From NCBI GenBank assembly GCA_902500125.1, contig GCA_902500125.1_4132.1: a stretch of 64,000 bases of DNA; one strand, 5' to 3'. Under the pieces are notes generated by a model, which was given only the letters and a program-made list of their open reading frames with translations, was not told the origin of the DNA and ran no database searches. Each line of letters starts with the position of its first letter. Position 1 is the stretch's first letter. Positions 14,875 through 29,543 of the stretch are shown in pieces. Origin of the DNA: Escherichia coli (GTDB lineage Bacteria; Pseudomonadota; Gammaproteobacteria; Enterobacterales; Enterobacteriaceae). Both the position numbers and the translations under genes were made by a program.

Positions 14875-14882
14875 TTACATGT

Positions 14883-14911
14883 ATTGACAGTACTACACTA
14901 TGGTAGTACTA
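14883..14911 (+). promoter_or_regulatory. sigma70-like promoter
   Basis: TTGACA 14883-14888, 17 nt, TACTAT 14906-14911. Confidence 0.5.
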
Positions 14912-14941
14912 TAACTTAATATTCACCACCGGAGATACGAT

Positions 14942-15962: not shown

Positions 15963-16276
15963 TGGATATAGTAACATTGATTTACACGTTGTATTCATTC
16001 TATTTCATTATGTGTTGGGTTGGATTTTTATTTGTACTCAAGATGTTTGATTATGTTGAAAAACAGATAAAAGAATTTTGTATTCCTTTTATCGGTTCAA
16101 CCATTATTAGTGTTTCTTGTGTGTATTTTTTGGTTTTTGATCCACCAGATAACACTGCAATGATTGACTTGATGTTACTACCAACAACTGTTACTTTTTT
16201 ATGTAGTCTGATGCCGCCGATTAGCCGTGGACTAACAGAATTTAGACGCAATCAAAAGCGTAAACGAGGGATGTAA
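15962..16276 (+). CDS. multi-TM family protein (104 aa)
   Basis: TAATG overlap; basic tail RRNQKRKRGM. Confidence 0.65.
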   Translation: MDIVTLIYTLYSFYFIMCWVGFLFVLKMFDYVEKQIKEFCIPFIGSTIISVSCVYFLVFDPPDNTAMIDLMLLPTTVTFLCSLMPPISRGLTEFRRNQKRKRGM

Positions 16277-16644
16277 TGGAAATTGCTCTTATTATCTTAA
16301 CTGCTATGCTGTTTATTAGTACTGTGGTTATAATTGGTAAATTCTTTTGTGTATCATTTTTAGAAACGGTATACGATGAAATTGCTGATGATTATGAATT
16401 ACAAGCCGGATTTTTCATTACGTATTGGCTTAGTTTATTTTGTCTAGTCATTGCTTGGATTTTACATATCTTTAAATGGGGTATGGTAGACGGTGATCCT
16501 ATTATGGCAATTATTGTTCTAGTGTTTGGTATCCTTGGTGGTGCAGTGCATAATCTAATGGTTATCTGGCAAACTGTTCAATATGTTTTGGTTCCCTATT
16601 TCGAAAAGATGCACAGTACAATTAAAAAACGTAAACGAGGTTAG
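16276..16644 (+). CDS. multi-TM family protein (122 aa)
   Basis: TAATG overlap; basic tail IKKRKRG. Confidence 0.65.
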   Translation: MEIALIILTAMLFISTVVIIGKFFCVSFLETVYDEIADDYELQAGFFITYWLSLFCLVIAWILHIFKWGMVDGDPIMAIIVLVFGILGGAVHNLMVIWQTVQYVLVPYFEKMHSTIKKRKRG

Positions 16645-16645
16645 T

Positions 16646-17008
16646 ATGAACGGGATAGAATTATCTTTCGTTGGTCAATTACTAGTAATGGCGTATACAT
16701 TTATCTTCTCACTGAATGCATTCGTGTGCATTGGGAAGTACTTCCATAAGCGACCATTATCAAATATATATGATGTAATCCAAAAGAGATATAGTCCAGC
16801 ATATACTGTGTTGGGTACAGTATTCAATTTTGGTTTTATTGTATTAATAATTGGACTGTTCACATCCTCTTTGAATACAATAACCTTCGGTCTTATGATA
16901 TGTTCATTGGTATTAGCCGTAATTATATGTTGTTTAGTACTGCACCTTGTGGTACTATTGTATATAAAGATCTCTGAAATCCACCAACGTTTGGGTATGA
17001 GGAAATAA
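16646..17008 (+). CDS. multi-TM family protein (120 aa)
   Basis: ORF 16583 trimmed to ATG 16646, 1 nt after previous stop; tail HQRLGMRK. Confidence 0.65.
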   Translation: MNGIELSFVGQLLVMAYTFIFSLNAFVCIGKYFHKRPLSNIYDVIQKRYSPAYTVLGTVFNFGFIVLIIGLFTSSLNTITFGLMICSLVLAVIICCLVLHLVVLLYIKISEIHQRLGMRK

Positions 17009-17009
17009 T

Positions 17010-17381
17010 ATGAGTTACCGTGAGATATTTTCCATTATTTCAATTATTATGTTCAGTACTGGAACACTGGTATGGTTATTATACTTCTTCTGTATTAATC
17101 CAGTGTATAATATGTTATGTAATATTAAATCAAGTGCCGGATATATCACTTTTATGGTCTTTATGGGATATTATTGTCTAAGCATTTTAGGTGTTGTTTT
17201 GGTTGTTATATTTGATGTGGGACCAAATAGTGATGGTATGGAAATACATGAATTAATAACCATGTTTGGATGTATGATACCAACAGCACTACTGTTTGTA
17301 GCTACTGGTAGTGGATTGATAAAATTATATAATTATTTAAAATCCATTCATAATTCCATTCATAATAAGCGTATGTCATAA
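17010..17381 (+). CDS. multi-TM family protein (123 aa)
   Basis: 1 nt after previous stop; tail HNSIHNKRMS. Confidence 0.65.
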   Translation: MSYREIFSIISIIMFSTGTLVWLLYFFCINPVYNMLCNIKSSAGYITFMVFMGYYCLSILGVVLVVIFDVGPNSDGMEIHELITMFGCMIPTALLFVATGSGLIKLYNYLKSIHNSIHNKRMS

Positions 17382-17388
17382 TAAAAAA

Positions 17389-17410
17389 TCCAGTACTATT
17401 AAGTACTGGA
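17389..17410 (+). terminator. hairpin built from AGTACT half-sites (weak terminator)
   Basis: TCCAGTACT-atta-AGTACTGGA; A-run before, no T-run after. Confidence 0.35.
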
Positions 17411-17423
17411 TGTATAAGGAGTT

Positions 17424-18086
17424 ATGATGAAATCAAAATTAGGTTTGTTTTATAAAAACTATTTTGTTAAACAACGTAAATTTATAAAAAAATATTTCTC
17501 TGGCGAGAAGTCTAGTCCTATAATCTTTAAAAGACCAAGTTATAATACTTACTTAGCTGGTGCTAAACAGTCTAAGAAATTTATTACTCTTTTACATAAA
17601 AACAAAATTAAAGCTTCTTATGTTGAAACGAGAAGAAACTCATCAATAACTCCTGGTGATTTTATTGAGTACGGATGTTTCAATATTAAGTACAATGATA
17701 ATACATACTTTATGGATATTGATTGTAATACATCCAATCTTTTTAACATTGTAGTAAATCCATTAAAACAATATAATGTTTATGGTGATTCTATTATCAA
17801 ATTAATCAAAAACAAAGATAGCTTTGATTTTGAAATAAATGTTTTAGATGATAATTTTGACGAAGTACCAGTAAACCCTGAAATCTGTGATATTTTAAAC
17901 AGTTTAAAAGGTAGTACCTACACTATATCATCTGATTTAATGTTTCAGTACTCATTAATCCATAAAGATATTGAAAAGTATATTGAATGCTCCAAAATTT
18001 TGAATTATCTTTACGATGAATTTAAAAAGAGTTCTAAAATAACCGCATACACTTTGTACAATATTCCTAAAATGGTGAATCTTTGA
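17424..18086 (+). CDS. family C protein, long form with basic N-terminus (220 aa)
   Basis: AAGGAG upstream; motif SDLMFQYSLIHKD; 3' end overlaps convergent minus-strand ORF by 20 nt. Confidence 0.65.
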   Translation: MMKSKLGLFYKNYFVKQRKFIKKYFSGEKSSPIIFKRPSYNTYLAGAKQSKKFITLLHKNKIKASYVETRRNSSITPGDFIEYGCFNIKYNDNTYFMDIDCNTSNLFNIVVNPLKQYNVYGDSIIKLIKNKDSFDFEINVLDDNFDEVPVNPEICDILNSLKGSTYTISSDLMFQYSLIHKDIEKYIECSKILNYLYDEFKKSSKITAYTLYNIPKMVNL

Positions 18087-18490
18087 CAAATACAGTACTG
18101 GCAACTCCACCGTCTGTAACATATTGTCCAGTACTGTAAATTTGTATACCATCGGTTAAGTAAGTTCTGTATAAAGTTGCTGTAACATATACGTTATTCA
18201 TATTCATCTCTATTGGTAGTACACATTTGGTATAGGCTGAGACATCTGTTTGTGTACCTATACCTAATTGACCTGCGTTATCGCCTGTGTTATAACCAGT
18301 TGCGTAAACACCTAATGAAGTTATAATATGATTAGAAAAATATGAATAACCCAAACTCTTGAGATTCTCTACTGTACAACGTACCATCTGACATAAGGGC
18401 AAAAACTGTTGTATCAGATGAAGCTATTTTTGTTACAGAAGGTTGTATGTTCTGTTTTGATGATGTGATAATTCTTCGAAAGGGTAGCAT
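18067..18490 (-). pseudogene. decayed/frameshifted mini-member of the MLPF-propeller family
   Basis: ATG 18490 after GGAGG gives MLPFRRIITSS...DGTLYS, then stops. ORF 18402..18067 in another frame matches the C-terminus of 26650..27816 (GQLGIGTQTDVS...TDG..YSTG). Total about 140 aa versus 370-410. Confidence 0.55.
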
Positions 18491-18555
18491 TGTATCCTCC
18501 AAATGTAAATCGTTATTATATTTAGGACAAAAAAATGCCAGTACAAAATACTGGC
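18491..18555 (-). promoter_or_regulatory. terminator + late-type promoter/SD cassette (variant)
   Basis: Minus strand: GCCAGTAttttGTACTGGC + T7, then AAATATAATAA...GGAGG before ATG 18490. Confidence 0.5.
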
Positions 18556-18561
18556 TTTATT

Positions 18562-19767
18562 TTATATACCACGACTGGGTATTTTATATAATTGAAATTT
18601 AGTGTAATAATCAGAAACTGTTGTACCTGTCGCTTGTGGGATATAGCCACTCAAATACACATCCCCTTGATTATCCATATACACATTTGTACATTCACTT
18701 GGACAGAATAACTCGATGCTGCCAACTTTAGGTGCATCAACTGGAACTACAAATGTAGTACTTGATGTTGTATTACCGCGACCGAGCCTACCATATGTGT
18801 TTATACCACACATATAAAGTGAATTGTTAGTTTTAACCGTAAGACCACCATATGTTAATGAATTTGATTTCATTATCATATCATCTGATATTGGTAGAGT
18901 GGAGATTGTAGATAATACTGTCCCTGATGAAGCGGCTGAACCATTACCCAAGTTACCTTCCGATTGAATCCCACTTGCACGAACTGTATATGTATTATTC
19001 GTGTTGTGTTTAGATACAACCCATGATGCACTCCCACCAAGTTCATAATGTATAACAGTATTGTTGGCTAATGCACCCATTTGTGTCCATACTCTAATGT
19101 TAGTTTCACCATTACTTATACCAAGTGAACCCCATGTGTTTTGACCAGTTACCCAAAGTGTTTTATCAATTTTCTGCACAATCACTGCACTTGAACCTGT
19201 TTTTACACTATCCACATTCGTATTAATTGAAGTAAATGTTGATAATCTTGTGGTTGTGTTATTACCAAAATATCCCTGTGTATTTGCCCCCATTCCATAT
19301 AGCGTACCATTTTGAAGTAAAACAAAAATACCCTCCCCTACAATTTGAATGTCCTTAATTTGCGACAATTGTGTTGCATTGAATACTGATGTAAAATATG
19401 AAGTACAATCAGTATAAGTACTGACAGTACTTAATCCTGCACCAATAGCTCTACCTACGCCACTGTAATAAAATTTATTATCTTCGGTTTGGATTAAATT
19501 AAAAGAACCTTGGGCTGTTCTAAAACGTTTTACATTTTGGTATATTAAAGTCCACTCTTTTACTTTCGCATTAGGTACACCATTTCCGAATCCATAGTTT
19601 TGTGAACTAGTTCCACCTATACCCATTAAGTCTCCATTTTTATATAATAGTAAGAGTGCTGTTGCTGGAATAACTGACGCACTATAACCATTGTAAATAA
19701 AGATTTCTTTCACTTCAGGAACTTTCATTTTATTTGCGTATTTTATCATCCTTGGAAAAGGTAACAT
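18562..19767 (-). CDS. MLPF-tagged RCC1-like beta-propeller repeat protein (401 aa)
   Basis: Starts MLPFPRMIKYAN; repeats such as GANTQGYFGNNTTT, GQNTWGSLGISNGE, GINTYGRLGRGNTT. Confidence 0.75.
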   Translation of the reverse strand: MLPFPRMIKYANKMKVPEVKEIFIYNGYSASVIPATALLLLYKNGDLMGIGGTSSQNYGFGNGVPNAKVKEWTLIYQNVKRFRTAQGSFNLIQTEDNKFYYSGVGRAIGAGLSTVSTYTDCTSYFTSVFNATQLSQIKDIQIVGEGIFVLLQNGTLYGMGANTQGYFGNNTTTRLSTFTSINTNVDSVKTGSSAVIVQKIDKTLWVTGQNTWGSLGISNGETNIRVWTQMGALANNTVIHYELGGSASWVVSKHNTNNTYTVRASGIQSEGNLGNGSAASSGTVLSTISTLPISDDMIMKSNSLTYGGLTVKTNNSLYMCGINTYGRLGRGNTTSSTTFVVPVDAPKVGSIELFCPSECTNVYMDNQGDVYLSGYIPQATGTTVSDYYTKFQLYKIPSRGI

Positions 19768-19831
19768 AAAATCCTCCTTTATTCATTATACTATATTTAA
19801 TCAAAAAGAAAAGCCAGTGTTAAGTACTGGC
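19768..19831 (-). promoter_or_regulatory. terminator + late-type promoter/SD cassette
   Basis: Minus strand: hairpin 19831-19813 + T-run, TTAAATATAGTATAATGAATAAAGGAGG, ATG 19767. Confidence 0.6.
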
Positions 19832-19838
19832 ATAAAAT

Positions 19839-21008
19839 CTAAGCAGAAGGCATATTCTTCATCTTAATAAATGAAAATTGTGTACCAGTATTTGTGGTTT
19901 GATCAGTAAAATATGAATTACTCCCAGCCCAGTACAATTCATTATTGACTATACAATATATAACAGAACTCGAACTCTGTGAATACACACGACTTATATT
20001 TGATTGTTCTACTCCAGTACTGAACTGAACTACCCCCAACTGTGAACTTGGTATTACATTAGTTGGTCTACCTAAACCGTTAACACCCGCTCCACCACCA
20101 CATGTATATACTCCAGTACTATCAGTTGATATATTAACATAACCATTTCCGGCATTTTCAAATAGTATTTCACTGGGAACAACACCAAATCCTGTAAGAT
20201 CTATTTTCCTGAATGTAGTGTAAACAGTAGAACCACCAACACCTCTTCCACCATAATCATTAGAACCAGCCATATAGATACTATATCCAGAACTTCCTAA
20301 ACATAATAACTGTACGTTGTCATATAAAATTTGCATAGATATAACGTTATCAGGAATACTCAATACCGTAAAAGTAGTTAAAGAAGAACTTCCAATATTA
20401 CTACCAACCGATGTTCCACATCTGTAGTACTTACCGCCTTTTATATAATGGAACGATGAACCGCCTAACTTATGTGCTCCTATTTCACTTACCCCAGTAT
20501 CTATAAGAATGGGAGATACAACTTTGTTATTAACACCTAACTCAGATCTACTGTTCATACCGAACCCATATAAACGACCATCTAACATCAATATTAGTGT
20601 ACTACCTGACGTACCTGCTGACGTAAATTCTATATTCTTTATTTGCGACACGTCAATACCTACAAATAATGAAGTTACTTCAGTCCAGTTAACATATGAA
20701 CCACTAGCCCCAAAATATCCACCCATGTATAGTCCGGCACAATATAACTTATTATCAACCGTCTTTATTAATGTACCGGATACACACGCCCAAAAATCAT
20801 CAACTTCATAGGGTACATGTACCCAACCACCTAATACATCACTATCATTCCCTGTTCCTAATTTGTAGTTCGATCCAGAACCACGCATATACATATTCCC
20901 TGTACTATAAAGTAATCCGACATGTAATTGACTACCATCCAATTTCTTTATTTCGGGAAGAGTTGGTTTAATATTTCCGTACTTTAACATTCTTCCAAAA
21001 GGTAACAT
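19839..21008 (-). CDS. MLPF-tagged RCC1-like beta-propeller repeat protein (389 aa)
   Basis: ORF 21074 trimmed to ATG 21008 (MLPFGRMLKYGNI) after AAAGGAGG; GMNSRSELGVNNKV, GAGVNGLGRPTN. Confidence 0.75.
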   Translation of the reverse strand: MLPFGRMLKYGNIKPTLPEIKKLDGSQLHVGLLYSTGNMYMRGSGSNYKLGTGNDSDVLGGWVHVPYEVDDFWACVSGTLIKTVDNKLYCAGLYMGGYFGASGSYVNWTEVTSLFVGIDVSQIKNIEFTSAGTSGSTLILMLDGRLYGFGMNSRSELGVNNKVVSPILIDTGVSEIGAHKLGGSSFHYIKGGKYYRCGTSVGSNIGSSSLTTFTVLSIPDNVISMQILYDNVQLLCLGSSGYSIYMAGSNDYGGRGVGGSTVYTTFRKIDLTGFGVVPSEILFENAGNGYVNISTDSTGVYTCGGGAGVNGLGRPTNVIPSSQLGVVQFSTGVEQSNISRVYSQSSSSVIYCIVNNELYWAGSNSYFTDQTTNTGTQFSFIKMKNMPSA

Positions 21009-21072
21009 AATTCCTCCTTTATTCATTATACTATATTTAATACAAATAAGAAAGCCAGTACAAAGTACTGGC
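21009..21072 (-). promoter_or_regulatory. terminator + late-type promoter/SD cassette
   Basis: Hairpin GCCAGTACtttGTACTGGC (21072-21054) + T-run, TTAAATATAGTATAATGAATAAAGGAGG. Confidence 0.6.
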
Positions 21073-21086
21073 ATAGTTTTATAGTA

Positions 21087-22196
21087 TTATTTCGGCATTG
21101 TAATTGCAGACCATGAGTTCGTGGTAATAGGACCTGGCACATACAAAAAAGAACCACAAGCATAAATTTGATTATTACCATCAAATACTATACTAAAATG
21201 TGCACATGTGTATAATGCTGATTTTTCTGGGTTGTAATTATCTAAAGTTAGTGTATTGGTGAATCTACTCAAACCACCACCAGAACCATTTCTACCAAAT
21301 TCACCAGTACTGTATATCTTTCCTTCGGTTGTTGCGTACATATTAACATATGAAGTCGCACTTGATTTTGATATTTTATGTATCTTACTATCAATAGTAG
21401 TGGAGTTAAATGCAAATGGATATACTTGTGTGTTCGTTGTAATACCGTTACCAAGTTGACCAATATACTGCCAACCTGCGTTGTATATATTGCTGGCTGA
21501 ATAAGCAAGAGTACCAGTACTGTTACCACCAAATAGTTTAACACTTGTTAACCTGCTTACTAGTGTAGTATACTGTCCGGGACTTACGCCAAGTGAACCA
21601 TATCCACTGCTCCCGCAACCGAGAAGTTCATTATTTGATGTTAATATTAATGTGTTATTCTGTGTACCCAATATATCAAGGACTGTATTAGCTCCGGTAT
21701 TAACAACTGAAACAAAAGTACTCTGAACCGTGGAATACCCACCACCGAGTGAATAGTTACCATTCATGCCTCTACCATAAACAATCGAACCACTAGCATC
21801 AACGTAGTGCATTGTATCTGCACCAATTGATATCATTTTAATATTAGATATATGTGGAAATGAAGAAGTAACATTCAAACCACCCAACGGAATCATAGTA
21901 TTTCCTGTGCCTAATTGTGTGGTAACTCCATGCATTATGAATTCTTCACCCTTGAGATAAAGAATATTGTACGCACCAGCCCATGCATCAGTAACACCTT
22001 CTGAAATTAATATCCAAGTATTTCTTGTTGCTGTATTTTCAACGTTTAACTGCAAATACGTATTAACCCCACAACCATAAAGTGAGCCATCGCCATAGAG
22101 GACGTACAAATTATCAAGACCGCACAGAACTTTCTTTATCTTTGGAGCTTCAGGTGCAATATTTCCGTACTTAACCATTCTAGCAAAAGGTAACAT
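21087..22196 (-). CDS. MLPF-tagged RCC1-like beta-propeller repeat protein (369 aa)
   Basis: MLPFARMVKYGNI; GWQYIGQLGNGITTNTQ, GSSGYGSLGVSPG, GMNGNYSLGGGYS; SD overlaps stop of upstream gene. Confidence 0.75.
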   Translation of the reverse strand: MLPFARMVKYGNIAPEAPKIKKVLCGLDNLYVLYGDGSLYGCGVNTYLQLNVENTATRNTWILISEGVTDAWAGAYNILYLKGEEFIMHGVTTQLGTGNTMIPLGGLNVTSSFPHISNIKMISIGADTMHYVDASGSIVYGRGMNGNYSLGGGYSTVQSTFVSVVNTGANTVLDILGTQNNTLILTSNNELLGCGSSGYGSLGVSPGQYTTLVSRLTSVKLFGGNSTGTLAYSASNIYNAGWQYIGQLGNGITTNTQVYPFAFNSTTIDSKIHKISKSSATSYVNMYATTEGKIYSTGEFGRNGSGGGLSRFTNTLTLDNYNPEKSALYTCAHFSIVFDGNNQIYACGSFLYVPGPITTNSWSAITMPK

Positions 22197-22206
22197 AAAT
22201 TCCTCC

Positions 22207-23386
22207 TTAAATTTGTGGCAATTGGTATTCAGTTAAAGTCCATGTACCAACAACTGTCCCTACTGGAGACATACCAGTGTAGTATAATTTCCCACTCACA
22301 TATGCAAATAATGCATTGTCATTCGCAGCAACCAACGATGTTGACGGATCATAAACTACAGAATTTGGAAATTGTGCTTGGACGAAAATTGAAGCATTAT
22401 TAGATGAATTGTTACCAAGCTGTCCATAATTATTATACCCTGTTCCAAAAATACGACTTCCATTTCTATATAATAATCCCCTAGGGTTTTGTGAATATGT
22501 TTGTATAAATTCAAAATCGGAAACATTAGTTAATTGTAAATAAGTACTTTGTGGCGTTAAAGATATCTTATTAGTATTAGATAGAACACCATTTCCTAAT
22601 TGTCCGTGAATTTTGTGACCCTACACCATATAGCGGATAAGTATTATCTACATTAAGAACTATACCCAACATATTGTTATATGAAATTATATCAACTGGG
22701 TACTGGCCTGTAGGAAAACTATACTTTGTCCAACTCGTCAAAGTATCAGTAGCAGAACCAGTTAACAATGTACCAGTACTAGTTTTACCACATCTCCATG
22801 CTGAATTATCATTTTTAATTATCCAAGTTGGACTATTGAAAAATGAACTAACCTTTTTAACATTAATATTAACCTGTGTAAATGATGTAAGTGTAGATGA
22901 ACTACTACCCAACTCATAGGTTGAATTATCACCTATTGCGTAAAGAACACTATCATTTGTTAGTAAAAACATATTACGAACATTTGGATATATCTCCTTG
23001 ATATTATCCACATTAAAACCTAAAAAATAAGACGTACAATCAACAAATGTAGTACTTTGAACTGCCCTAGATGTACCAGTCCAAAAGTTCCAACCTGCAT
23101 AATAAAATTTATTATCATTGGTCTGAACTAAGCTATATGAAGCATTCCTTGTGCACCAAAAATTTTTCACATTTTGCATTAAGCGAACCCATTTGGTCTG
23201 TGTCGTTGTATTTCCAAGACCGAATATACCAGCATTGTTACCGCCAATACCCCACAAATCACCGTTCTTATACAGAATCATCAATGTGTTGTTGGTAAAA
23301 GCCGATGGTGCTTGCATTTTAATTACATTAGATTCATATACAGGTGCTATATTCCCGTACTTTAACATTCTCCCAAAAGGTAACAT
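22207..23386 (-). pseudogene. MLPF-tagged propeller paralog interrupted by a frameshift near 22620-22632
   Basis: ORF 23386..22577 (MLPFGRMLKYGNI, 269 aa) hits TAA. Shifted frame continues ..GHKIHGQLGNGVLSNTN..NYGQLGNNSS.. to TAA 22207-22209. Summed length about 392 aa equals the paralogs. Confidence 0.6.
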
Positions 23387-23394
23387 ATTCCCTC

Positions 23395-24570
23395 CTATTC
23401 CGGTAAAATCATTTTCTTCATTTTAACTTGTTGTGTACCTGGACTCTGTTCCTGAAACATAGACCCGTTACCACACCAGTACACCTCATTAGTACCCACT
23501 AACGCGTATAACACACCAGAACCACCTTGTACTGAAAATGCATTAACATCTGGTGCAACATCCATATCCTCATATTGTACCTGGTGGTAATAAGATCTTT
23601 CTGATGCAGTAGTAACAGGCCAACCAAGAGGAACACCACTACCACATGTATAAAGTTTACCATTCTGTGTCATTGCCATTATAAAATAATTCAAACTGTG
23701 ATTGTTCATCGACCCAGCATCTGGTATAATACCACTAATTGCAGGAGTGGTACTAAATGGACTCATGATAATAGTAGTGTCGCCATACCCTATTCCTAAA
23801 CAATAATCAGTGTTTTTTCCAGCAGTATATACATTAATCTTATTTCTATTGGATGTAAGTACTGAAGTGGTTTCAGGAGTACATGAAATACCAATAACTG
23901 TTCCAGATATATCAGTACTTACTGTAAATGTGGATAGTTTAGATGAACTTGAACCTAGGTTATAACTTGCATTATTACCACATCTGTAATATTGTCCATT
24001 TTTTACAAAATGGAAAGCACCACCCGACTGTGTTCCTGCGATTAAAGTAACACCCGTGTTAATCAAAATAGGTGTTGATTTTATTCCAGTAACACCCAAT
24101 TCACCCCCAGCATTACGGCCTATCCCATATAAGTTACCATCACTTAACAGAATTAACAAAGAACCATTGGATGCGGTAGTTTCGGTAGAAGCTATATCTT
24201 GAACTGTAGTAAGGCTTGGAATTGTAGACAATATAGATGTAATATTAGTCCATCCGGGAACAGGTGATGCAGATACACCGACATAGTTCATTTGCCCTGC
24301 TAAGTAAAATTCTCCGTCAGTCGTAAGTATAATTGTCCCTGCGAATAAACACCAAACATTAGAAACTTTATATGGACACTGTACCCACCCATTTTGTACA
24401 TACTCCGTACTATTATTTCCTAGCCTATAATGTGCACCACTTCCACGTAGATATAAGTTACCACTATCAAATAACATACCCATATGTGATGACGATGTAC
24501 TAATCTTTAATACACCAGAAGGTGCAGGTTTAATATTTCCATACTTAACCATTCTTGCAAAAGGTAACAT
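23395..24570 (-). CDS. MLPF-tagged RCC1-like beta-propeller repeat protein (391 aa)
   Basis: ORF 24588 trimmed to ATG 24570 (MLPFARMVKYGNI); GRNAGGELGVTGIKS; stop TAG overlaps SD of next gene. Confidence 0.75.
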   Translation of the reverse strand: MLPFARMVKYGNIKPAPSGVLKISTSSSHMGMLFDSGNLYLRGSGAHYRLGNNSTEYVQNGWVQCPYKVSNVWCLFAGTIILTTDGEFYLAGQMNYVGVSASPVPGWTNITSILSTIPSLTTVQDIASTETTASNGSLLILLSDGNLYGIGRNAGGELGVTGIKSTPILINTGVTLIAGTQSGGAFHFVKNGQYYRCGNNASYNLGSSSSKLSTFTVSTDISGTVIGISCTPETTSVLTSNRNKINVYTAGKNTDYCLGIGYGDTTIIMSPFSTTPAISGIIPDAGSMNNHSLNYFIMAMTQNGKLYTCGSGVPLGWPVTTASERSYYHQVQYEDMDVAPDVNAFSVQGGSGVLYALVGTNEVYWCGNGSMFQEQSPGTQQVKMKKMILPE

Positions 24571-24634
24571 ATTTCCTCCTTTATTCATTATACTATATTT
24601 AATACAAAAAGAAAAGCCAGTACTCTGTACTGGC
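24571..24634 (-). promoter_or_regulatory. terminator + late-type promoter/SD cassette
   Basis: Hairpin 24634-24616 + T-run, TTAAATATAGTATAATGAATAAAGGAGG. Confidence 0.6.
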
Positions 24635-24641
24635 CTATATT

Positions 24642-25379
24642 TTAGACTGAATTGTTAGGATAATATCTCCCACGTCCCCATATTATTCGCACAGCACCAC
24701 CACCAGCAGCCGTATAAGAAAAATTATCCCATATACTACCACCACCACCATACATCTTACCAGCACCACCACTACCAGCACCACCATTATATGAACCATC
24801 GTATCTACCGCCAATACCATTAGCACCTTGAACAATGATACCAGTACCACCACCCGTACCAATGAACGAGGTATTATAGAATGCACCACCACCACCGCCG
24901 CCGCCAGCACCATTTTCACCAGTGATTGCATCTCCGTTACCACCTTTACCAGTGTAGCCACCAGCACCACCACCAATGACTGCACCACCACTTACACCAG
25001 CGTTGCCCCCATTACCACCACCATCATTAATAGCGTTAGCAGCTTTCCCACCTAGTCCACCAACCCTATATTCACCAGTGAAGCTAACACATAGTTTTTC
25101 AGTTCCACGATATAAACCGTTTTCAACTGCTGTAGTAGTGTTGGGATGTGTAAGAGAAACACTTAAGTACTCACCACTAGTAACCGGAATATTATTACGC
25201 CACGATAAGCCGCCGCCAGCACCACGTTGACCACCCGGCGAAATAACACATACTGATATTTCGGTAACGCTAGCAGGAACTGTAAATTGTGTTGTTCCTA
25301 TTGTCGTGATTAATTGTTCACCATGTGGCTTATATTCAATTTCATTCCCGTACTTAATCATTCTTCCAAAAGGTAACAT
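24642..25379 (-). CDS. MLPF-tagged glycine-rich protein (245 aa), tail-fibre-like Gly-rich domain
   Basis: MLPFGRMIKYGNE, then QFTVPASVTEISVCVISPGGQ and long GGxGG runs (GAGGGGGGGAFYNTSFIGTGGGTG); no propeller repeats. Confidence 0.7.
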   Translation of the reverse strand: MLPFGRMIKYGNEIEYKPHGEQLITTIGTTQFTVPASVTEISVCVISPGGQRGAGGGLSWRNNIPVTSGEYLSVSLTHPNTTTAVENGLYRGTEKLCVSFTGEYRVGGLGGKAANAINDGGGNGGNAGVSGGAVIGGGAGGYTGKGGNGDAITGENGAGGGGGGGAFYNTSFIGTGGGTGIIVQGANGIGGRYDGSYNGGAGSGGAGKMYGGGGSIWDNFSYTAAGGGAVRIIWGRGRYYPNNSV

Positions 25380-25445
25380 AATTCCCTCCTTTATTCATTA
25401 TAATATATTTAATACAAAAAAGAAAAGCCAGTACAAAGTACTGGC
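25380..25445 (-). promoter_or_regulatory. terminator + late-type promoter/SD cassette
   Basis: Hairpin 25445-25427 + T-run, TTAAATATATTATAATGAATAAAGGAGGG. Confidence 0.6.
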
Positions 25446-25452
25446 ATAGTAT

Positions 25453-26580
25453 TCAAAAAGGTAAATCAATTTGCTTAGTAATAATAGTATCTAACGGTAT
25501 TGAACACAATGAGAAATTCTTTCCACCCGTATTTTTAGGATTATATCCATTCATCCATACATTATTACCTTCGTAAAATGTATTCCAGTATAAAGACCCA
25601 CTATATCGTGTATTCGAATTGAACGATGTAAAATTGAATTCTTGAAATGCTGTAAAATATGGAAGGGAACTTGAACTACTTCCCGTAAATGGGGTATGCC
25701 CAGTTGCTATTAGTTTGTTTGTATCTGCATTAATTAAAAATACAACACTAGTCGAATAGTCCAACGAATCAGGATGATATATATTACTCATATCACCTAT
25801 AGTAAAACCAACATCAAAAACTTTACTATGTGCACCACTACCAGCAAAAGTAGTTCCAGTTGCATATATTTTATTATCAGATGTTATCATTACAAAACCA
25901 ACACCAGAAACAAAACTGCATTTTATATCATAAGATATATCATCAAACAACGGAACAAATGTGGTTGCATCACCCGATGTTGCTTTAACTTGAAAGCTGT
26001 TATTTGAACCTGAACCATATACAGTTCCATCGTTTTTAATCTTAAACAATGTATCGCCAAGGTAACCGCCAAATATATTATCCACATTAGTGTCAAGTAC
26101 AGTCCACGCTGAAACATAATTTTTATGTCCTAAACCTAATGAACCACTTCGATTCCATCCTCTTCCATAAAGTGTTCCGTCTTTCATTAATATAAATGCT
26201 GTATAACCACATAACATTTTTTTAATTTGGGTAACATCTATACCAGTGAAATACACAGCCCAGTCAGTATATCCTTGTTGGAAAGTATTAGAATTCGTGA
26301 ATGCATATGTTGAACCTGAACCATATATTTTATCACCTTTAATAACAACGGAAAACGATCCTAACCATAAGTCATCAACTTCAGTTGTGATTTGTTGAAC
26401 TGCTCCTAACGATACAAACTGTGTACTTAAACCCGCATTATAGTTTGAATCTTCACCGTGTGCATATACAGTGCCATCTTGCATTAGAAACATTTCAAGA
26501 GTGTAACTAACAACACTTTTCTTTATATTATTAACTTCGATTATATTCCCATAATCAAACATTCTAACAAAAGGTAACAT
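25453..26580 (-). CDS. MLPF-tagged RCC1-like beta-propeller repeat protein (375 aa)
   Basis: MLPFVRMFDYGNI; GWNRSGSLGLGHKNYVS, GSGSNNSFQV. Confidence 0.7.
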   Translation of the reverse strand: MLPFVRMFDYGNIIEVNNIKKSVVSYTLEMFLMQDGTVYAHGEDSNYNAGLSTQFVSLGAVQQITTEVDDLWLGSFSVVIKGDKIYGSGSTYAFTNSNTFQQGYTDWAVYFTGIDVTQIKKMLCGYTAFILMKDGTLYGRGWNRSGSLGLGHKNYVSAWTVLDTNVDNIFGGYLGDTLFKIKNDGTVYGSGSNNSFQVKATSGDATTFVPLFDDISYDIKCSFVSGVGFVMITSDNKIYATGTTFAGSGAHSKVFDVGFTIGDMSNIYHPDSLDYSTSVVFLINADTNKLIATGHTPFTGSSSSSLPYFTAFQEFNFTSFNSNTRYSGSLYWNTFYEGNNVWMNGYNPKNTGGKNFSLCSIPLDTIITKQIDLPF

Positions 26581-26642
26581 ATTTCCCTCCTTTATTCAAT
26601 ATACTATATTTAATCAAAAAAAGCCAGTACTCAAGTACTGGC
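26581..26642 (-). promoter_or_regulatory. terminator + late-type promoter/SD cassette
   Basis: Hairpin 26642-26623 + T7, TTAAATATAGTATATTGAATAAAGGAGGG. Confidence 0.6.
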
Positions 26643-26649
26643 ATATCAA

Positions 26650-27816
26650 TTACGAAAAACGTGGATCATCAAGAACAAACACGGTACTACTTGGACCACC
26701 TTGTGTGGTGACAGCACTAGTACTGTAAAGAAAGTTACCATCTGTCATATAAGTTCTACGATTCGTACAAATAACTCTTACTTTATTCATATCGATATCA
26801 GGATTAGGTAATGGACATGAAGTATACACTGATACATCAGTACTTGTTCCTATTCCCAGCGTACCTTCATTTGTGGTTGAACCGCTATTCAACCCACTAG
26901 CATATATACCACTGCTTGTAATAACAAAAGTGGCGTAGAATGGAGAACCTTCACCTATATTTAATTTAGTTCCAGGTGGTTGTCTTGCCGCAGCAACCGC
27001 ACCATATGCTTTCCCACCAGATGTGGCAAGATTACCAAGAGCACCATACTGTTGTTGTCCACCATTATACACTGTGTTAGTGCCATCACTGTTAGTGTGG
27101 ATACCAATAGAATTATAGTTACTGTTGCTATATACTAAAGCGGCATTAGAAGTAACTGTATTTCGTGTATATACTTTATATTGTTGGGTAAAATTACCAC
27201 TAGTGGACGTACCCTGTACAGTTCCAGTGTAGTATATATATCCGTCTGTACCAATGAATGAGTGCATAACACTACCTGCAAAAATTTTTTCTGGAGTAAC
27301 ACCTGACGGTATTGTTGATTGTACAAATCTACCCACTACATTTGTTGTTGTATTATTTCCCAATTGACCGGAGTCACCATAACCACTTGACCATATGGTA
27401 TTGTTCTCAAGAAGAACACTAATTGATAATCTTGATAAAGCTATTTCTTTAACATCACTTTCTAATGTATCAAAAAATGAAGTACAATTTGTCCAAGTGT
27501 TCACTACGCTAGAACTAACACCAATTTGTTTATTATCACCAGAACTATAATAATTCCCATCATATGTTTGTATAAGTATAACAGAACCACCAACCCATAC
27601 TTTATCAACTGAACCAAACGTTCTTGTCCATGTGGTAACTATATCCCCGCTATTATTACCCAATCCAAAGCAACCACTACTATCTACGCCTCGTACATAT
27701 AAATCTCCTGAAGTCATCAGAACTGCACAGAATGATTGTGCACCTTTAACATCTTTAATTGGCTCTGGTTCAGGTGCAACATTTCCATAATCAAACATTC
27801 TTACAAAAGGTAACAT
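26650..27816 (-). CDS. MLPF-tagged RCC1-like beta-propeller repeat protein (388 aa)
   Basis: MLPFVRMFDYGNV; GYGDSGQLGNNTTTNV, NEGTLGIGTSTDVS, QQYGALGNLATSG. Confidence 0.75.
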   Translation of the reverse strand: MLPFVRMFDYGNVAPEPEPIKDVKGAQSFCAVLMTSGDLYVRGVDSSGCFGLGNNSGDIVTTWTRTFGSVDKVWVGGSVILIQTYDGNYYSSGDNKQIGVSSSVVNTWTNCTSFFDTLESDVKEIALSRLSISVLLENNTIWSSGYGDSGQLGNNTTTNVVGRFVQSTIPSGVTPEKIFAGSVMHSFIGTDGYIYYTGTVQGTSTSGNFTQQYKVYTRNTVTSNAALVYSNSNYNSIGIHTNSDGTNTVYNGGQQQYGALGNLATSGGKAYGAVAAARQPPGTKLNIGEGSPFYATFVITSSGIYASGLNSGSTTNEGTLGIGTSTDVSVYTSCPLPNPDIDMNKVRVICTNRRTYMTDGNFLYSTSAVTTQGGPSSTVFVLDDPRFS

Positions 27817-27850
27817 AAATCCCTCCTTTATTCATTATATCATATTTACC
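27817..27850 (-). promoter_or_regulatory. late-type promoter/SD (first cassette of the minus-strand block)
   Basis: Minus strand AAATATGATATAATGAATAAAGGAGGG before ATG 27816. Confidence 0.5.
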
Positions 27851-27919: not shown

Positions 27920-28147
27920 ATGACAAATACTTTTAAGTACTACCTCAATACTCTAAATGAACTAGAGTACGCGAAGTTTCTCGCGGATTGTTCGTGGCTA
28001 ATTGAGCTAAAAAAATATAACAGTACTGGATGTAACCTTATGCTGAACAATGCACTTGATACCCTTGTAGTGAGCATTTTACACAACAACATCTGCGGGG
28101 ATAGAAACAAACAATTATCAAAAATCTTAGTACTGCTATCTATATGA
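27920..28147 (+). CDS. family A small protein (75 aa, divergent first member)
   Basis: AAGGAG upstream; MTNTFKYYLNTL... Confidence 0.6.
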   Translation: MTNTFKYYLNTLNELEYAKFLADCSWLIELKKYNSTGCNLMLNNALDTLVVSILHNNICGDRNKQLSKILVLLSI

Positions 28148-28347
28148 ATATCGAACAGTACTACATCGATGCACTACCAACAAAAGGTCTACGTGAAAGC
28201 CTACTGCATACACAAACTAATTTCAAACACCTCAAACGTAGCCCTAAACTCCTGAACTCGTACAGGAATAATAACATAAGAAATGCTTTACAAGGGGTAG
28301 AATGTATGCAATACTATTACATCCTTACCCTATTAATCGAGTACTAA
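28144..28347 (+). CDS. family A small protein (67 aa)
   Basis: ATGA overlap; MNIEQYYIDALP...LTLLIEY. Confidence 0.65.
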   Translation: MNIEQYYIDALPTKGLRESLLHTQTNFKHLKRSPKLLNSYRNNNIRNALQGVECMQYYYILTLLIEY

Positions 28348-28348
28348 T

Positions 28349-28558
28349 ATGAATACTGAACATAAAGAATTCTACACCAAATACCTTAGCAACGAAGAAC
28401 AATTGTTTCTAAGGAGTGTATCACCTGTAAGTACCAATACTCAATTCGGTAGAGATTGCTTTAATAATTGTATACGTAGTACTCTAGAAGCAATCGAATG
28501 CAATAACAAAAATATTATGTACTCAGGTTTAATAGGACTAATATATTTCTATGAATAA
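28349..28558 (+). CDS. family A small protein (69 aa)
   Basis: TAAtATG junction; MNTEHKEFYTKYLS...IGLIYFYE; close paralog of 31333. Confidence 0.65.
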   Translation: MNTEHKEFYTKYLSNEEQLFLRSVSPVSTNTQFGRDCFNNCIRSTLEAIECNNKNIMYSGLIGLIYFYE

Positions 28559-28745
28559 TCATAAAGATTTCTATTGTAGTAAACTACCCAAACAAGAACA
28601 GCTATCATTCTCTTTAGCACCACCTATGAGAAAGGATAATCTGTATTATAATTACGATTTCAGGATGGTGACACGTTATGCAATAGAACATCAATTTCCT
28701 GAAACTAAGTACTTATCTATCATGAACATCATCTTTAAGTTCTAA
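28551..28745 (+). CDS. family A small protein (64 aa)
   Basis: 8-nt overlap; MNNHKDFYCSKLP...; close paralog of 31535. Confidence 0.65.
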   Translation: MNNHKDFYCSKLPKQEQLSFSLAPPMRKDNLYYNYDFRMVTRYAIEHQFPETKYLSIMNIIFKF

Positions 28746-28756
28746 AAGAGTACTAT

Positions 28757-28969
28757 ATGAAAACTATGAACATTCATCAGTACTACTTGGATATTCTCCC
28801 TAAAGATGTACAGTTCATCCTTAAACAAGAATACAGTACTTTAAAAAACCTTAAAAGAACCGCACCGAATGTATTAATCCTGCACCAAGAAAATGTAGTT
28901 GATAATATTCTACAAGGTGTACCAGGAACCGAGTACTTTAACATAATAAGGCTAATTACATTACCATGA
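28757..28969 (+). CDS. family A small protein (70 aa)
   Basis: M(KTM)NIHQYYLDILP...; family alignment would favour ATG 28766. Confidence 0.6.
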   Translation: MKTMNIHQYYLDILPKDVQFILKQEYSTLKNLKRTAPNVLILHQENVVDNILQGVPGTEYFNIIRLITLP

Positions 28970-29151
28970 ATCATATATTATACTATTACCAAAATCTATC
29001 CGACAGGGACAAGTACACCCACAACTCCCATGTATGGTACTACAAACGCGGTAGTATAAGGGACAAACAACATTACTTCAGTACTGCTATAAAAGAAACA
29101 CTAACAACTAAGTACACGTACAGAGCAGTACTGAAACTTATTGATATGTAA
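28966..29151 (+). CDS. family A small protein (61 aa)
   Basis: ATGA overlap; MNHILYYYQNLS...AVLKLIDM. Confidence 0.6.
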   Translation: MNHILYYYQNLSDRDKYTHNSHVWYYKRGSIRDKQHYFSTAIKETLTTKYTYRAVLKLIDM

Positions 29152-29161
29152 AGAGAATACT

Positions 29162-29347: not shown

Positions 29348-29355
29348 GGTACTCT

Positions 29356-29535: not shown

Positions 29536-29543
29536 GGAATAAT

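What the first reader, a model, noticed from the sequence alone, without database searches (positions are those of the whole stretch)
18067..27816. Nine-gene array of RCC1-like beta-propeller paralogs that share a 12-residue N-terminal tag, MLPFxRMxKYGN
Every gene in this minus-strand block starts MLPF(P/G/A/V/R)RM(I/L/V/F)(K/D)YGN, but the bodies are strongly diverged. Most bodies show repeats of about 50 aa with G-x-N-x-x-G-(Q/S/E/R)-L-G-x-G, for example GWQYIGQLGNGITT, GYGDSGQLGNNTTT and GINTYGRLGRGNTT. That is the RCC1/BLIP-II propeller signature. One member (24642..25379) keeps the tag but carries a Gly-rich fibre-like domain instead, so the tag behaves as a portable module. Seven copies look intact and two are decayed. 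My inference is that the tag is a shared docking or targeting peptide. It would attach a set of interchangeable ligand-binding heads to one virion or cell site, giving a multivalent receptor-binding, decoration or host-range system. I do not recognise this tag-plus-propeller combination as a described system.
Basis: partly seen in the sequence, partly recalled or inferred. Interest (0 to 1): 0.8.

Follow-up and report, generated by a model that had tools for sequence, protein, structure and literature searches.

The report
Shared address tag on phage adhesin-like proteins
A giant E. coli phage carries nine neighbouring genes whose very different sugar-binding-type proteins all begin with the same 12-residue peptide. 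This peptide most likely acts as an address label that loads interchangeable binding heads onto the virus particle, and these proteins have until now been misnamed "DNA condensation proteins".

Summary
Nine minus-strand genes (18067-27816) start with MLPFxRMxxYGN, and this start occurs nowhere else in the 64 kb window. Six genes encode intact RCC1-like 7-bladed propellers. One encodes a TNF-like/polyglycine "brush" head of the kind found on phage tail fibres, not a fibre. One is frameshifted and one is a remnant.

The window is an Asteriusvirus (121Q/phAPEC6-like jumbo phage). The RCC1 array is already known and is annotated as "DNA condensation proteins". I found no description of the tag in the literature I could search.

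I found the tag on 124 distinct proteins in Rak2-like jumbo phages of Escherichia, Salmonella, Erwinia, Serratia, Yersinia, Cronobacter, Pectobacterium, Klebsiella and Xanthomonas. Their bodies include RCC1, Kelch, LamG lectin and Gly-rich folds, plus several unknown ones.

Synonymous codon variation shows that selection acts on the protein. Published virion proteomes detect 9 of 11 tagged proteins in phage CBB, including all six CBB-specific structural proteins, and 8 of about 14 in phAPEC6.

In a ~150 kb phage, homologous heads carry a different shared N-terminal peptide (MxEMLxxG). So the tag is a portable, lineage-specific module tied to virion incorporation.

External docking and an adhesin role are inferred, not shown, and the anchor protein is unknown.

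The parts
26650..27816 (-). Tagged gene 1. Tag MLPFVRMFDYGN plus an RCC1-like propeller, 388 aa.
   Evidence: ORF and translation. Pfam RLD/RCC1 matches. No close ortholog in phAPEC6 or 121Q, best 38%. Near-identical copies in metagenome contigs L031 and L053.
25453..26580 (-). Tagged gene 2. Tag MLPFVRMFDYGN plus an RCC1-like propeller, 375 aa.
24642..25379 (-). Tagged gene 3. Tag MLPFGRMIKYGN plus a TNF-like/polyglycine 'brush' head (PF21722-like), 245 aa.
23395..24570 (-). Tagged gene 4. Tag MLPFARMVKYGN plus an RCC1-like propeller, 391 aa. The true start is 24570.
   Evidence: 87% identical to phAPEC6 gp006, which was detected in virions.
22197..23386 (-). Tagged gene 5, frameshifted. A 269-aa ORF (22577-23386) is followed by the rest of the propeller in another frame (22197-22576).
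   Evidence: Three-frame translation. The 269-aa product is 97% identical to phAPEC6 gp007, which was detected in virions at 17.5% coverage.
21087..22196 (-). Tagged gene 6. Tag MLPFARMVKYGN plus an RCC1-like 7-bladed propeller, 369 aa.
   Evidence: AF2 pLDDT 91.4, with residues 1-10 at pLDDT about 51. Foldseek match to UVR8 with TM 0.8. 99% identical to phAPEC6 gp009, detected in virions.
19839..21008 (-). Tagged gene 7. Tag MLPFGRMLKYGN plus an RCC1-like propeller, 389 aa. The true start is 21008.
   Evidence: 98% identical to phAPEC6 gp010, detected in virions.
18562..19767 (-). Tagged gene 8. Tag MLPFPRMIKYAN plus an RCC1-like propeller, 401 aa.
   Evidence: No close ortholog in phAPEC6 or 121Q, best 36%.
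18067..18490 (-). Remnant of a ninth tagged gene. It has a degenerate tag (MLPFRRIITSSK), an internal deletion and a frameshift. Its C-terminal piece resembles the end of gene 1.
19732..27816 (-). The 36-nt tag-coding segments at the 5' end of each gene: 27781-27816, 26545-26580, 25344-25379, 24535-24570, 23351-23386, 22161-22196, 20973-21008 and 19732-19767.
   Evidence: Ungapped DNA identity is 0.80-0.84 over +1..+36, against 0.28-0.39 further downstream. Across 49 genes, M1 L2 P3 F4 Y10 N12 never change while their codons do.
18537..27847 (-). Repeated intergenic cassettes, each made of a terminator hairpin (GCCAGTAC-loop-GTACTGGC plus a T-run), a promoter-like box (AAATATAGTATAATGAATAA) and an AGGAGG ribosome-binding site. 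Hairpins lie at 26623-26642, 25427-25445, 24614-24636, 21054-21072, 19813-19831 and 18537-18555. Boxes lie at 27828-27847, 26592-26611, 25391-25410, 24581-24600, 21019-21038 and 19779-19798.
   Evidence: (6 matches against 0.09 expected).

Best explanation
The block is a hypervariable array of accessory virion-protein genes in an Asteriusvirus jumbo phage. Each protein has three parts:
- a 12-residue address peptide at the extreme N-terminus (MLPFxRMxxYGN);
- a short linker, often rich in proline;
- a self-contained ligand-binding head.

In this window the heads are RCC1-like 7-bladed propellers and one TNF-like/polyglycine 'brush' head. In related phages they also include Kelch propellers, LamG lectin folds and others.

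Shown: the tag is not part of any of these folds, it is kept by selection on the protein, and it marks proteins found in purified virions.

Inferred: the free N-terminal peptide inserts into one conserved site on a virion component. Candidate sites are the tips or bases of the tail and capsid 'hairs', or the tail fibres. In that way a mixed set of interchangeable adhesin-like heads would be displayed on the outside of the particle and would widen or tune binding to host surfaces.

Also inferred: in Asteriusvirus each gene is its own transcription unit, and the repeated terminator-promoter-RBS-tag junction gives homology for gain, loss and exchange of cassettes. That would explain why close relatives carry 9 to 15 different members.
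For: Portability. An exact or degenerate DNA search for the tag in IMG/VR and in metagenomes, plus tblastn against phage records, finds it only in Rak2-like jumbo phages of 310-386 kb. A loose scan for ORFs of at least 150 aa starting M[LIVMF]PF in those loci gave 125 distinct proteins. Of these, 124 carry class A (MLPFx[R/Q/I][M/L/I]xxYGN, n=109) or class B (MLPF[P/S/A]IIS.., n=15), and they fall into 13 body clusters. The bodies include RCC1, Kelch, an RCC1+Kelch fusion, Laminin_G_3, Gly_rich_2 and unknowns.

Protein-level selection. L2, P3, F4, Y10 and N12 are invariant while their codons vary (CCT 28 / CCA 19, TAC 36 / TAT 13, GGG 23 / GGA 20). Outside Asteriusvirus the upstream DNA is not conserved.

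Not part of the fold. Tag residues have pLDDT of about 51-55 in two otherwise confident models of unrelated folds. RCC1 homologs from cells lack the tag.

Always N-terminal. An in-frame stop lies 0-56 codons upstream, and a ribosome-binding site lies just upstream of the ATG.

Virion association.
- phAPEC6: gp003, 005, 006, 007, 009, 010, 549 and 551 were detected (PMC7247149). That is 8 of about 14 tagged proteins against 62 of 551 overall, Fisher p = 3e-5.
- CBB: 9 of 11 tagged proteins were detected, p = 2e-8. They come from four separate loci: CBB_144, CBB_247, CBB_536-537 and CBB_548-554. All six structural proteins unique to CBB are tagged (PMC5259590). I predicted that CBB_144 would be tagged before reading its sequence.
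- GAP32: gp001, gp530 and gp531 were detected.

The heads look like surface binders. The Gly-rich head matches the receptor-binding distal part of Pam3 gp24 and the Bxb1 'brush' protein (PMC9608196; PMC13243795). Several homologs are fused to FN3 domains. LamG and Kelch are lectin-type folds.

Lineage-specific tags on the same heads. In a ~150 kb phiTE/PBES02-like phage, a LamG-like protein and a Gly-rich protein both start MxEMLxxG. The LamG-like body is homologous to that of tagged CBB_549 (36% identity, E 1e-27), with the alignment starting just after both tags. The Gly-rich body is homologous to window gene 3 (45% over 93 aa, E 5e-10), with the alignment starting at residues 33 and 28.

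Precedent. The first 29 residues of KP32 RBP2 are necessary and sufficient to load a foreign enzymatic domain onto that virion (PMC13352976).
Against: There is no direct evidence of docking, of a partner, or of surface location.

The mass-spectrometry counts are modest (1-8 unique peptides), and purified virions can carry sticky contaminants.

The heads are globular, so they cannot themselves be the hair shafts.

GAP32 has tagged proteins but was not reported to have hairs.

Low pLDDT at a terminus is common and proves little on its own.

The absence of the tag from RaK2 and K64-1 rests on short-query tblastn and pattern scans, which would miss a diverged tag.

Within Asteriusvirus, part of the tag's DNA identity could come from gene conversion together with the adjacent conserved promoter cassette.
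Confidence: 0.6

Rival explanations
1. The tag is a capsid-targeting sequence, like the 10-residue CTS shared by the polymorphic internal proteins of phage T4. It would bind the prohead scaffold, so the proteins are packed inside the head (possibly in the inner body) and ejected into the host with the DNA, where the propellers act on host proteins or defences.
For: The form matches: a short, strictly N-terminal peptide shared by diverse proteins in a hypervariable locus. The phage has a T4-type prohead core/protease and an inner body (PMC7247149). The proteins are in virions at low peptide counts. Propellers are protein-interaction platforms.
Against: No conserved protease site follows the tag. 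A Glu after the tag is at variable positions or missing (gene at 24570, and several CBB members). The proteins are 24-43 kDa with pI 4.9-9.3, not small and basic. One body class is the receptor-binding head of tail fibres and tail 'brush' proteins, some homologs carry FN3 domains, and others are lectin folds. All of these are typical of outward-facing proteins.
Confidence: 0.15
2. The proteins are what the databases call them: RCC1-type regulators of chromosome or DNA condensation that organise the packaged genome. On this view the common N-terminus is only a family trait of paralogs.
For: The RCC1 fold is real. The phAPEC6 authors proposed a role in the ordered DNA/inner body.
Against: The name is transferred from the fold only. 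The same tag sits on Kelch, LamG and Gly-rich bodies that have no link to DNA. The tag is not part of the fold. The proteins are not basic. RCC1-like propellers in general are binding platforms, not DNA condensers (established knowledge of the family).
Confidence: 0.05
3. The conserved 36 nt is a nucleic-acid element, either a translation-initiation or regulatory RNA site or a by-product of gene conversion with the promoter cassette. The peptide itself would have no function.
For: In this window the conserved stretch runs on from a repeated terminator-promoter-RBS cassette.
Against: In CBB, XbC2, GAP32, Serratia BF and the metagenomic relatives the upstream DNA differs and the genes are packed in operons, yet the peptide is kept. 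Synonymous sites vary while the amino acids do not.
Confidence: 0.03
4. The tag is recognised by an assembly chaperone, by a protease (for example the phage ClpP-like subunit), or as a degradation/timing signal. It would not be a structural docking element in the finished particle.
For: Short N-terminal peptides often serve as recognition signals. CBB carries a ClpP-like subunit that was detected in virions.
Against: This does not explain why possession of the tag predicts presence in the virion across four unlinked CBB loci. No partner is known.
Confidence: 0.07

Closest known systems
Conserved N-terminal docking peptide of secondary receptor-binding proteins in branched RBP systems (Klebsiella phages KP32, K11, KP34; Latka et al.; PMC13352976)
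   Same: A short N-terminal peptide, separate from the functional body, is needed to load the protein on the virion. It can carry a foreign body, and closely related phages keep the peptide while swapping the bodies.
   Different: In those phages the peptide is about 29 residues, sits on trimeric tailspike depolymerases, and binds a T4 gp10-like branching domain of one primary RBP, usually one partner per phage. Here the tag is 12 residues with a different sequence. It sits on up to 15 mostly monomer-type lectin-like heads per genome. The anchor is unknown and nothing has been tested experimentally.
Phage T4 capsid targeting sequence and polymorphic internal proteins
   Same: About ten conserved N-terminal residues are shared by otherwise unrelated proteins in a hypervariable locus, and the proteins end up in the virion.
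   Different: The T4 CTS is followed by a fixed L/I-x-E protease site and sits on small basic proteins inside the head. Here there is no fixed site, and the proteins are larger, non-basic and adhesin-like.
Distal tail-fibre adhesins with polyglycine domains (Pam3 gp24, Salmonella phage S16 gp38, Bxb1 'brush' gp33)
   Different: The helical docking domain of gp24 or gp38 is replaced here by the 12-residue tag, and the same tag also serves unrelated folds.
RCC1-like 'DNA condensation protein' arrays noted in phAPEC6, 121Q, PBECO4 and GAP32 (PMC7247149, PMC5259590)
   Same: These are the same genes. Their multiplicity and their detection in virions are already published.
   Different: Those papers treat them as DNA-condensation or inner-body candidates. 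They do not mention the shared N-terminal peptide, or that the Kelch, LamG and Gly-rich structural proteins of CBB carry it too.

Membership tests
RCC1-like repeat beta-propeller (Pfam RCC1 / RCC1_2 / RLD) | Tandem repeats of about 50 aa with the RCC1 glycine signature | tested here: met
   RCC1 or RCC1_2 above the curated cut-off in 5 of 7 propeller genes. All 7 match the RLD model at E 1e-11 to 1e-31. All match phrog_4219.
RCC1-like repeat beta-propeller (Pfam RCC1 / RCC1_2 / RLD) | Seven-bladed propeller fold | tested here: met
   AF2 pLDDT 91.4 with about 28 strands. Foldseek TM 0.8 to UVR8 and 0.65-0.72 to HERC2, RPGR and RCC1.
RCC1-like repeat beta-propeller (Pfam RCC1 / RCC1_2 / RLD) | Ran-GEF or chromatin-binding activity, which is the basis of the name 'chromosome condensation' | not testable with these tools
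   No evidence for it. The proteins are not basic (pI 4.9-9.3). The name is transferred from the fold.
Glycine-rich domain PF21722 / TNF-like plus polyglycine tail-fibre head (Pam3 gp24-like) | TNF-like sandwich followed by stacked glycine-rich loops | tested here: met
Glycine-rich domain PF21722 / TNF-like plus polyglycine tail-fibre head (Pam3 gp24-like) | N-terminal alpha-helical bundle that docks the trimer to the baseplate | tested here: not met
   The body starts about 20 residues after Met1. Only the 12-residue tag and a linker precede it.
Branched-RBP 'conserved peptide' docking system (KP32 type) | Short conserved N-terminal peptide on otherwise diverse virion proteins | tested here: met
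Branched-RBP 'conserved peptide' docking system (KP32 type) | Partner protein with a T4 gp10-like branching domain that binds the peptide | not tested
   No partner was identified.
Branched-RBP 'conserved peptide' docking system (KP32 type) | Bodies are trimeric tailspikes or depolymerases | tested here: not met
   Bodies are propellers, LamG, Gly-rich heads and small unknown domains. No enzymatic tailspike was found among the 124 proteins.
Branched-RBP 'conserved peptide' docking system (KP32 type) | Virion incorporation depends on the peptide | not testable with these tools
   Only a correlation is available: tagged proteins are enriched in virion proteomes.
T4-type capsid targeting sequence / internal proteins | Conserved N-terminal peptide of about 10 residues on diverse proteins of a variable locus | tested here: met
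T4-type capsid targeting sequence / internal proteins | Fixed prohead-protease site (L/I-x-E) ending the peptide | tested here: not met
   The Glu position is variable or absent after the tag.
T4-type capsid targeting sequence / internal proteins | Small, basic, DNA-associated proteins located inside the head | tested here: inconclusive
   Size and charge do not fit. Location cannot be tested here.

The most novel reading that the evidence does not exclude
Large myoviruses may use a general 'N-terminal address code'. A peptide of 8-12 residues, specific to each phage lineage (MLPFxRMxxYGN or MLPFPIIS in Rak2-like jumbo phages, MxEMLxxG in phiTE/PBES02-like phages), would be sufficient to load any folded cargo onto a fixed virion site. 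Lectin-like heads could then move freely between lineages simply by swapping the tag. In the jumbo phages the docking sites would be the enigmatic capsid and tail 'hairs', which would make these a programmable, multivalent adhesin display.
Probability: 0.3. Interest if true: 0.8.

Novelty: new variant of a known kind. Interest (0 to 1): 0.62.

Why it matters
- It would replace a wrong functional label ("DNA condensation protein", "HERC1", "RPGR") that is spread over dozens of jumbo-phage genomes.
- It gives a simple sequence rule that predicts accessory virion proteins. The rule correctly predicted CBB_144.
- It links all six CBB-specific structural proteins to one system, and so gives a concrete lead to the unexplained hairs of these phages.
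- If the 12-residue peptide is sufficient for loading, it would be a very compact handle for displaying foreign binding domains on a 350-kb phage used in therapy research.

Tried and rejected
- Sequence search of solved structures for both body types found only cellular RCC1 proteins and nothing for the Gly-rich member, even with a profile. No solved phage structure contains these proteins.
- The literature has no description of the tag. I searched "RCC1 + jumbo phage", Asteriusvirus, 121Q, RaK2 cryo-EM, fHe-Yen9-04 and the string MLPF, and read the Sharanji, fEgEco12, Eneladusvirus, XbC2, Hua 2017 and Iyer 2021 papers.
- The CBB supplementary files hold no peptide-level MS data, so I could not tell whether the tag is retained or cleaved.
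- I looked for an anchor encoded next to the arrays. Of six CBB genes flanking the arrays that I tested (CBB_530, 534, 535, 538, 542, 547), only the CBB_538 AAA-like gene has a homolog in the window. This shows synteny but gives no anchor candidate.
- CBB/GAP32 structural proteins that lack a RaK2 homolog include the T4 gp34-like fibre subunit CBB_226 and its neighbour CBB_225. This is only a weak co-occurrence hint.
- I wrongly guessed that CBB_029 was the tenth tagged protein. It is a Band_7 protein.
- The phiTE cryo-EM paper does not place the MxEML-tagged proteins.
- No sibling tags lie near P0023 in a 216-kb contig.
- Two IMG/VR hits (L010, L014) are a 548-aa protein of unknown family whose MLPF..YAN start looks like chance. 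Short metagenomic ORFs of 13-51 aa that match the pattern are also chance hits.
- A sigma-70 consensus scan was no better than shuffled sequence, so the promoter type of the cassette is unknown.

Full report
**What the window is.** The region matches Asteriusvirus jumbo coliphages (G17, Sharanji, 121Q, phAPEC6, PBECO4) at 93-98% identity. At most 53% of the 9.75-kb block is covered in any one record, so this array is a mosaic not seen as such in the phage collection. The genes are annotated there as "regulator of chromosome condensation", "putative DNA condensation protein", "HERC1" or "hypothetical".

**The observation.** A six-frame scan finds LPFxR[MILV] nine times, all on the minus strand and all at ORF starts between 18490 and 27816. 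There are none elsewhere in the 64 kb. MLPF occurs 9 times against 0.48 expected.

Eight open reading frames follow these starts:
- Six full RCC1-like genes of 369-401 aa.
- One Gly-rich gene of 245 aa.
- One 269-aa ORF that is a frameshifted propeller. The rest of it is readable in another frame at 22197-22576.

The ninth start (18490) heads a deleted, frameshifted remnant.

The bodies are only 25-38% identical to one another. Two ORFs look longer in a mechanical ORF list (starts 24588 and 21074) because an ATG inside the promoter/RBS cassette is in frame. The AGGAGG box sits just upstream of the MLPF ATG.

**The bodies.** Pfam RCC1, RCC1_2 or RLD models match all seven propeller genes. AlphaFold2 of 21087-22196, run with a 23-sequence alignment, gives a confident 7-bladed propeller (pLDDT 91.4, pTM 0.89). 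Its best structural matches are UVR8 (TM 0.8), HERC2, RPGR and RCC1.

The Gly-rich member has no Pfam hit itself, but its homologs carry PF21722. Its model (pLDDT 93.3) matches three things:
- the ALK glycine-rich domain.

[quoted passage not shown] Polyglycine "brush" domains are regarded as anti-receptors (PMC13243795). So this member is a binding head, not a fibre.

In both models the first ten residues have pLDDT of about 51-55. The tag is therefore not part of either fold.

**The gene junctions.** Six of the nine genes are preceded by the same cassette: a hairpin terminator (GCCAGTAC-loop-GTACTGGC plus a T-run), then AAATATAGTATAATGAATAA, then AGGAGG. Most genes are therefore separate transcription units. 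The junction of about 110 nt is a repeated stretch of homology.

Close relatives carry different sets. phAPEC6 has about 14 members and Sharanji 13, and tblastn counts 5-15 tag sites per Asteriusvirus record. Three window genes (27816, 26580, 19767) have no ortholog above 39% in phAPEC6 or 121Q, whereas four others are 97-99% identical.

**Is the tag a protein feature or a DNA feature?** I collected 49 distinct tagged gene starts from this window and relatives.
- L2, P3, F4, Y10 and N12 never change, although the search pattern allowed alternatives at positions 2, 10, 11 and 12.
- Their codons vary: CCT 28 / CCA 19 / CCG 1 / CCC 1; TAC 36 / TAT 13; GGG 23 / GGA 20 / GGT 2; TTT 45 / TTC 4; AAT 45 / AAC 4.
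- Outside Asteriusvirus the genes are packed head to tail without the promoter cassette, and the upstream DNA is unrelated, yet the peptide is kept.

Selection therefore acts on the peptide.

**Is the tag portable?** Yes, and this is the main result.
- An exact DNA search in IMG/VR hit 121Q and Pectobacterium phage CBB.
- In CBB, seven adjacent genes on the minus strand (CBB_548-554) start MLPF(A/P/S)R(I/L/M)x(K/E/Q)Y(A/G)N or MLPFSI(I/V)xxYGN. Their bodies are Kelch propellers and Laminin_G_3 lectin folds.
- A degenerate search added GAP32, Serratia BF and two other contigs of 355-371 kb.
- tblastn with a 24-aa query found 61 phage records, all 310-386 kb. Their hosts are Escherichia, Salmonella, Erwinia, Yersinia, Serratia, Cronobacter, Pectobacterium, Klebsiella (fENko-Kae01) and Xanthomonas. 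RaK2 and K64-1 were not among them.
- Xanthomonas phage XbC2 has eleven consecutive tagged genes: an RCC1+Kelch fusion of 688 aa, Kelch, LamG, RCC1 and unknowns.
- One metagenome scan added further arrays. Its chance hits were all ORFs of 13-51 aa.

I then asked only for an ORF of at least 150 aa starting M[LIVMF]PF in the fetched loci. This gave 125 distinct proteins. All but one carry either class A (MLPFx[R/Q/I][M/L/I]xxYGN, 109 proteins) or class B (MLPF[P/S/A]IIS.., 15 proteins). Both classes occur on RCC1 and on Gly-rich bodies, and the bodies fall into 13 BLAST clusters.

The tag is always at the extreme N-terminus. RCC1 homologs from cells start instead with signal peptides or directly with the fold.

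**Are tagged proteins in the virion?** Three published proteomes say so.
- phAPEC6: gp003, 005, 006, 007, 009, 010, 549 and 551 were detected (PMC7247149, Table 1). Each of gp003, 005, 006, 007, 009 and 010 starts with the tag. That is 8 of about 14 tagged proteins against 62 of 551 overall, p = 3e-5.
- CBB: the detected tagged proteins are CBB_536, 537, 548, 549, 551, 552 and 553, plus CBB_247 and CBB_144.
- CBB_144 was a test of the idea. Before reading its sequence I guessed it would be tagged, because it is a CBB-specific structural protein with a low mass per residue. It reads MLPFSPLIVYGN followed by a Gly-rich body.
- In all, 9 of 11 tagged CBB proteins, encoded at four unlinked loci, are in the virion, against 55 of 554 overall (p = 2e-8).
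- All six structural proteins that the authors list as unique to CBB relative to GAP32 (144, 247, 536, 537, 551, 552) are tagged. The authors reasoned that CBB's extra hair-like structures should be encoded by such CBB-specific genes.
- GAP32: gp001, gp530 and gp531 were also detected.

**A parallel in another lineage.** Most homologs of the Gly-rich head from non-jumbo contigs begin M(L/I)E(L/M/T)(L/M)xxG instead of MLPF.

In a 150-kb phiTE/PBES02-like phage contig, the Gly-rich protein starts MLEMLTVG and a LamG-like protein starts MNEMLMLG.
- The LamG-like body is 36% identical (E 1e-27) to that of tagged CBB_549. The alignment starts right after the two different tags.
- The Gly-rich body aligns to the window's member.

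So homologous heads carry different short N-terminal peptides according to phage lineage, and within a lineage unrelated heads share the peptide. That is what an address matched to the particle would look like.

**Mechanism.**

Shown: a protein-level, strictly N-terminal, fold-independent tag that marks virion-associated proteins across a whole clade.

Inferred: the peptide docks into a conserved site on a structural protein and displays the heads on the outside, where they act as accessory adhesins. The reasons for preferring an outside location are these:
- the head types (tail-fibre receptor head, lectin folds, propellers, FN3 fusions in relatives);
- the high turnover of the array;
- the EM reports of small globular ends on the tail hairs and baseplate fibres of CBB;
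- hairs anchored on the sheath rings and hexamer centres of phAPEC6.

The closest tested precedent is the conserved peptide of KP32 RBP2. That peptide is necessary for loading and can carry a foreign enzyme (PMC13352976).

The anchor is unknown. Structural proteins shared by CBB and GAP32 but lacking in the tag-free RaK2 include the T4 gp34-like fibre subunit CBB_226 and its neighbour CBB_225. This is only a hint.

**Rivals.**
- *T4-like capsid-targeting signal.* It fits the form, but there is no fixed protease site after the tag, and the size, charge and fold types do not fit.
- *The database reading ("DNA condensation").* It rests on the fold name only and cannot explain the same tag on Kelch, LamG and Gly-rich proteins.
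- *A purely nucleic-acid element.* It is excluded by the codon data and by the unrelated upstream DNA in other genera.
- *A chaperone or protease recognition signal.* It remains possible but does not explain the link to virions.

**Novelty.** The RCC1 arrays and their presence in virions are published. I found no description of the tag, its reach across folds and genera, the two tag classes, or the parallel tag in the literature available here. The principle of a short N-terminal docking peptide on exchangeable host-binding proteins is known. I therefore rate this as a new variant of a known kind.

**Caveats.**
- The MS evidence comes from other phages of the clade, with modest peptide counts.
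- The loci were found through the tag, so at least one tagged gene per locus is by construction. The other genes in each array are not.
- Absence of the tag from RaK2-type phages rests on short-query searches.
- No partner, location or function has been tested.

Noticed in passing
L056 2459-3109 and 10001-10693 (E. coli assembly GCA_009015555.1, 149,946-bp phiTE/PBES02-like phage contig); N-termini of P0005-P0118: There is a second shared N-terminal peptide, M(L/N/I)E(M/L)(L)xxG. It sits on a LamG-like protein and a Gly-rich protein whose bodies are homologous to MLPF-tagged bodies of jumbo phages. Most non-jumbo homologs of the Gly-rich head start this way.
   Followed up: partly
L011 (Serratia phage BF), L012, L018 (Xanthomonas phage XbC2 5481-6647 and 8927-9553), L032, L045: A second tag class, MLPF(P/S/A)IIS(N/S/K)T.., lacks YGN. 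It co-exists with class A in the same genomes and sits on RCC1, Gly-rich, LamG and Kelch bodies. By tblastn it occurs in Serratia, Erwinia, Yersinia and Xanthomonas jumbo phages but not in Asteriusvirus.
   Followed up: partly
window 22197-23386: The frameshifted propeller gene is conserved at 97% in phAPEC6 and 121Q, and its 269-aa product (gp007) was detected in phAPEC6 virions. It is either a functional truncated propeller or a case of programmed frameshifting, rather than a dead gene.
   Followed up: partly
window 27920-29723, + strand: A tandem run of at least eight small paralogous ORFs of about 60-84 aa, with recurring motifs such as ..YY..L....., ..Y.Y..VLKLI(S/D)M. This is probably the tandem array of very similar genes that Hua et al. 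mention for 121Q (PMC5646251).
   Followed up: no
window 14101-18086, + strand: An AAA-like gene (14101-14874, 48% identical to CBB_538) is followed by several small paralogous membrane-protein ORFs (15962-17381) and a 220-aa ORF, directly upstream of the array. The same order (CBB_538, membrane paralogs CBB_539-546, CBB_547, tagged array) is found in phage CBB, so the array sits at a conserved genome position.
   Followed up: partly
window 27781-27816 and 26545-26580; L031 and L053 (metagenome contigs OEQX01000370 and OERM01000014): The tag variant VRMFD is shared by the first two window genes and by most array members of a metagenomic relative. Orthologous bodies in 121Q and phAPEC6 carry (A/G)RM(V/I)K instead. 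Tags therefore look homogenised within a genome, by gene conversion or by co-adaptation to the partner, and this window looks like a recombinant of two array types.
   Followed up: partly
window 24571-24588 and 21009-21074; P0129, P0135: An ATG inside the conserved promoter/RBS cassette (TATAATGAATAAAGGAGG) is sometimes in frame. This creates false N-terminal extensions (MNKGGN-MLPF...) in ORF lists and in some database entries, which hide the tag.
   Followed up: yes
phage records under hits H1-H80: The same gene family is annotated under many unrelated names: DNA condensation protein, regulator of chromosome condensation, E3 ubiquitin ligase HERC1, X-linked retinitis pigmentosa GTPase regulator, Ig domain-containing protein and S-layer protein. 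All of these are name transfers from the propeller fold.
   Followed up: yes
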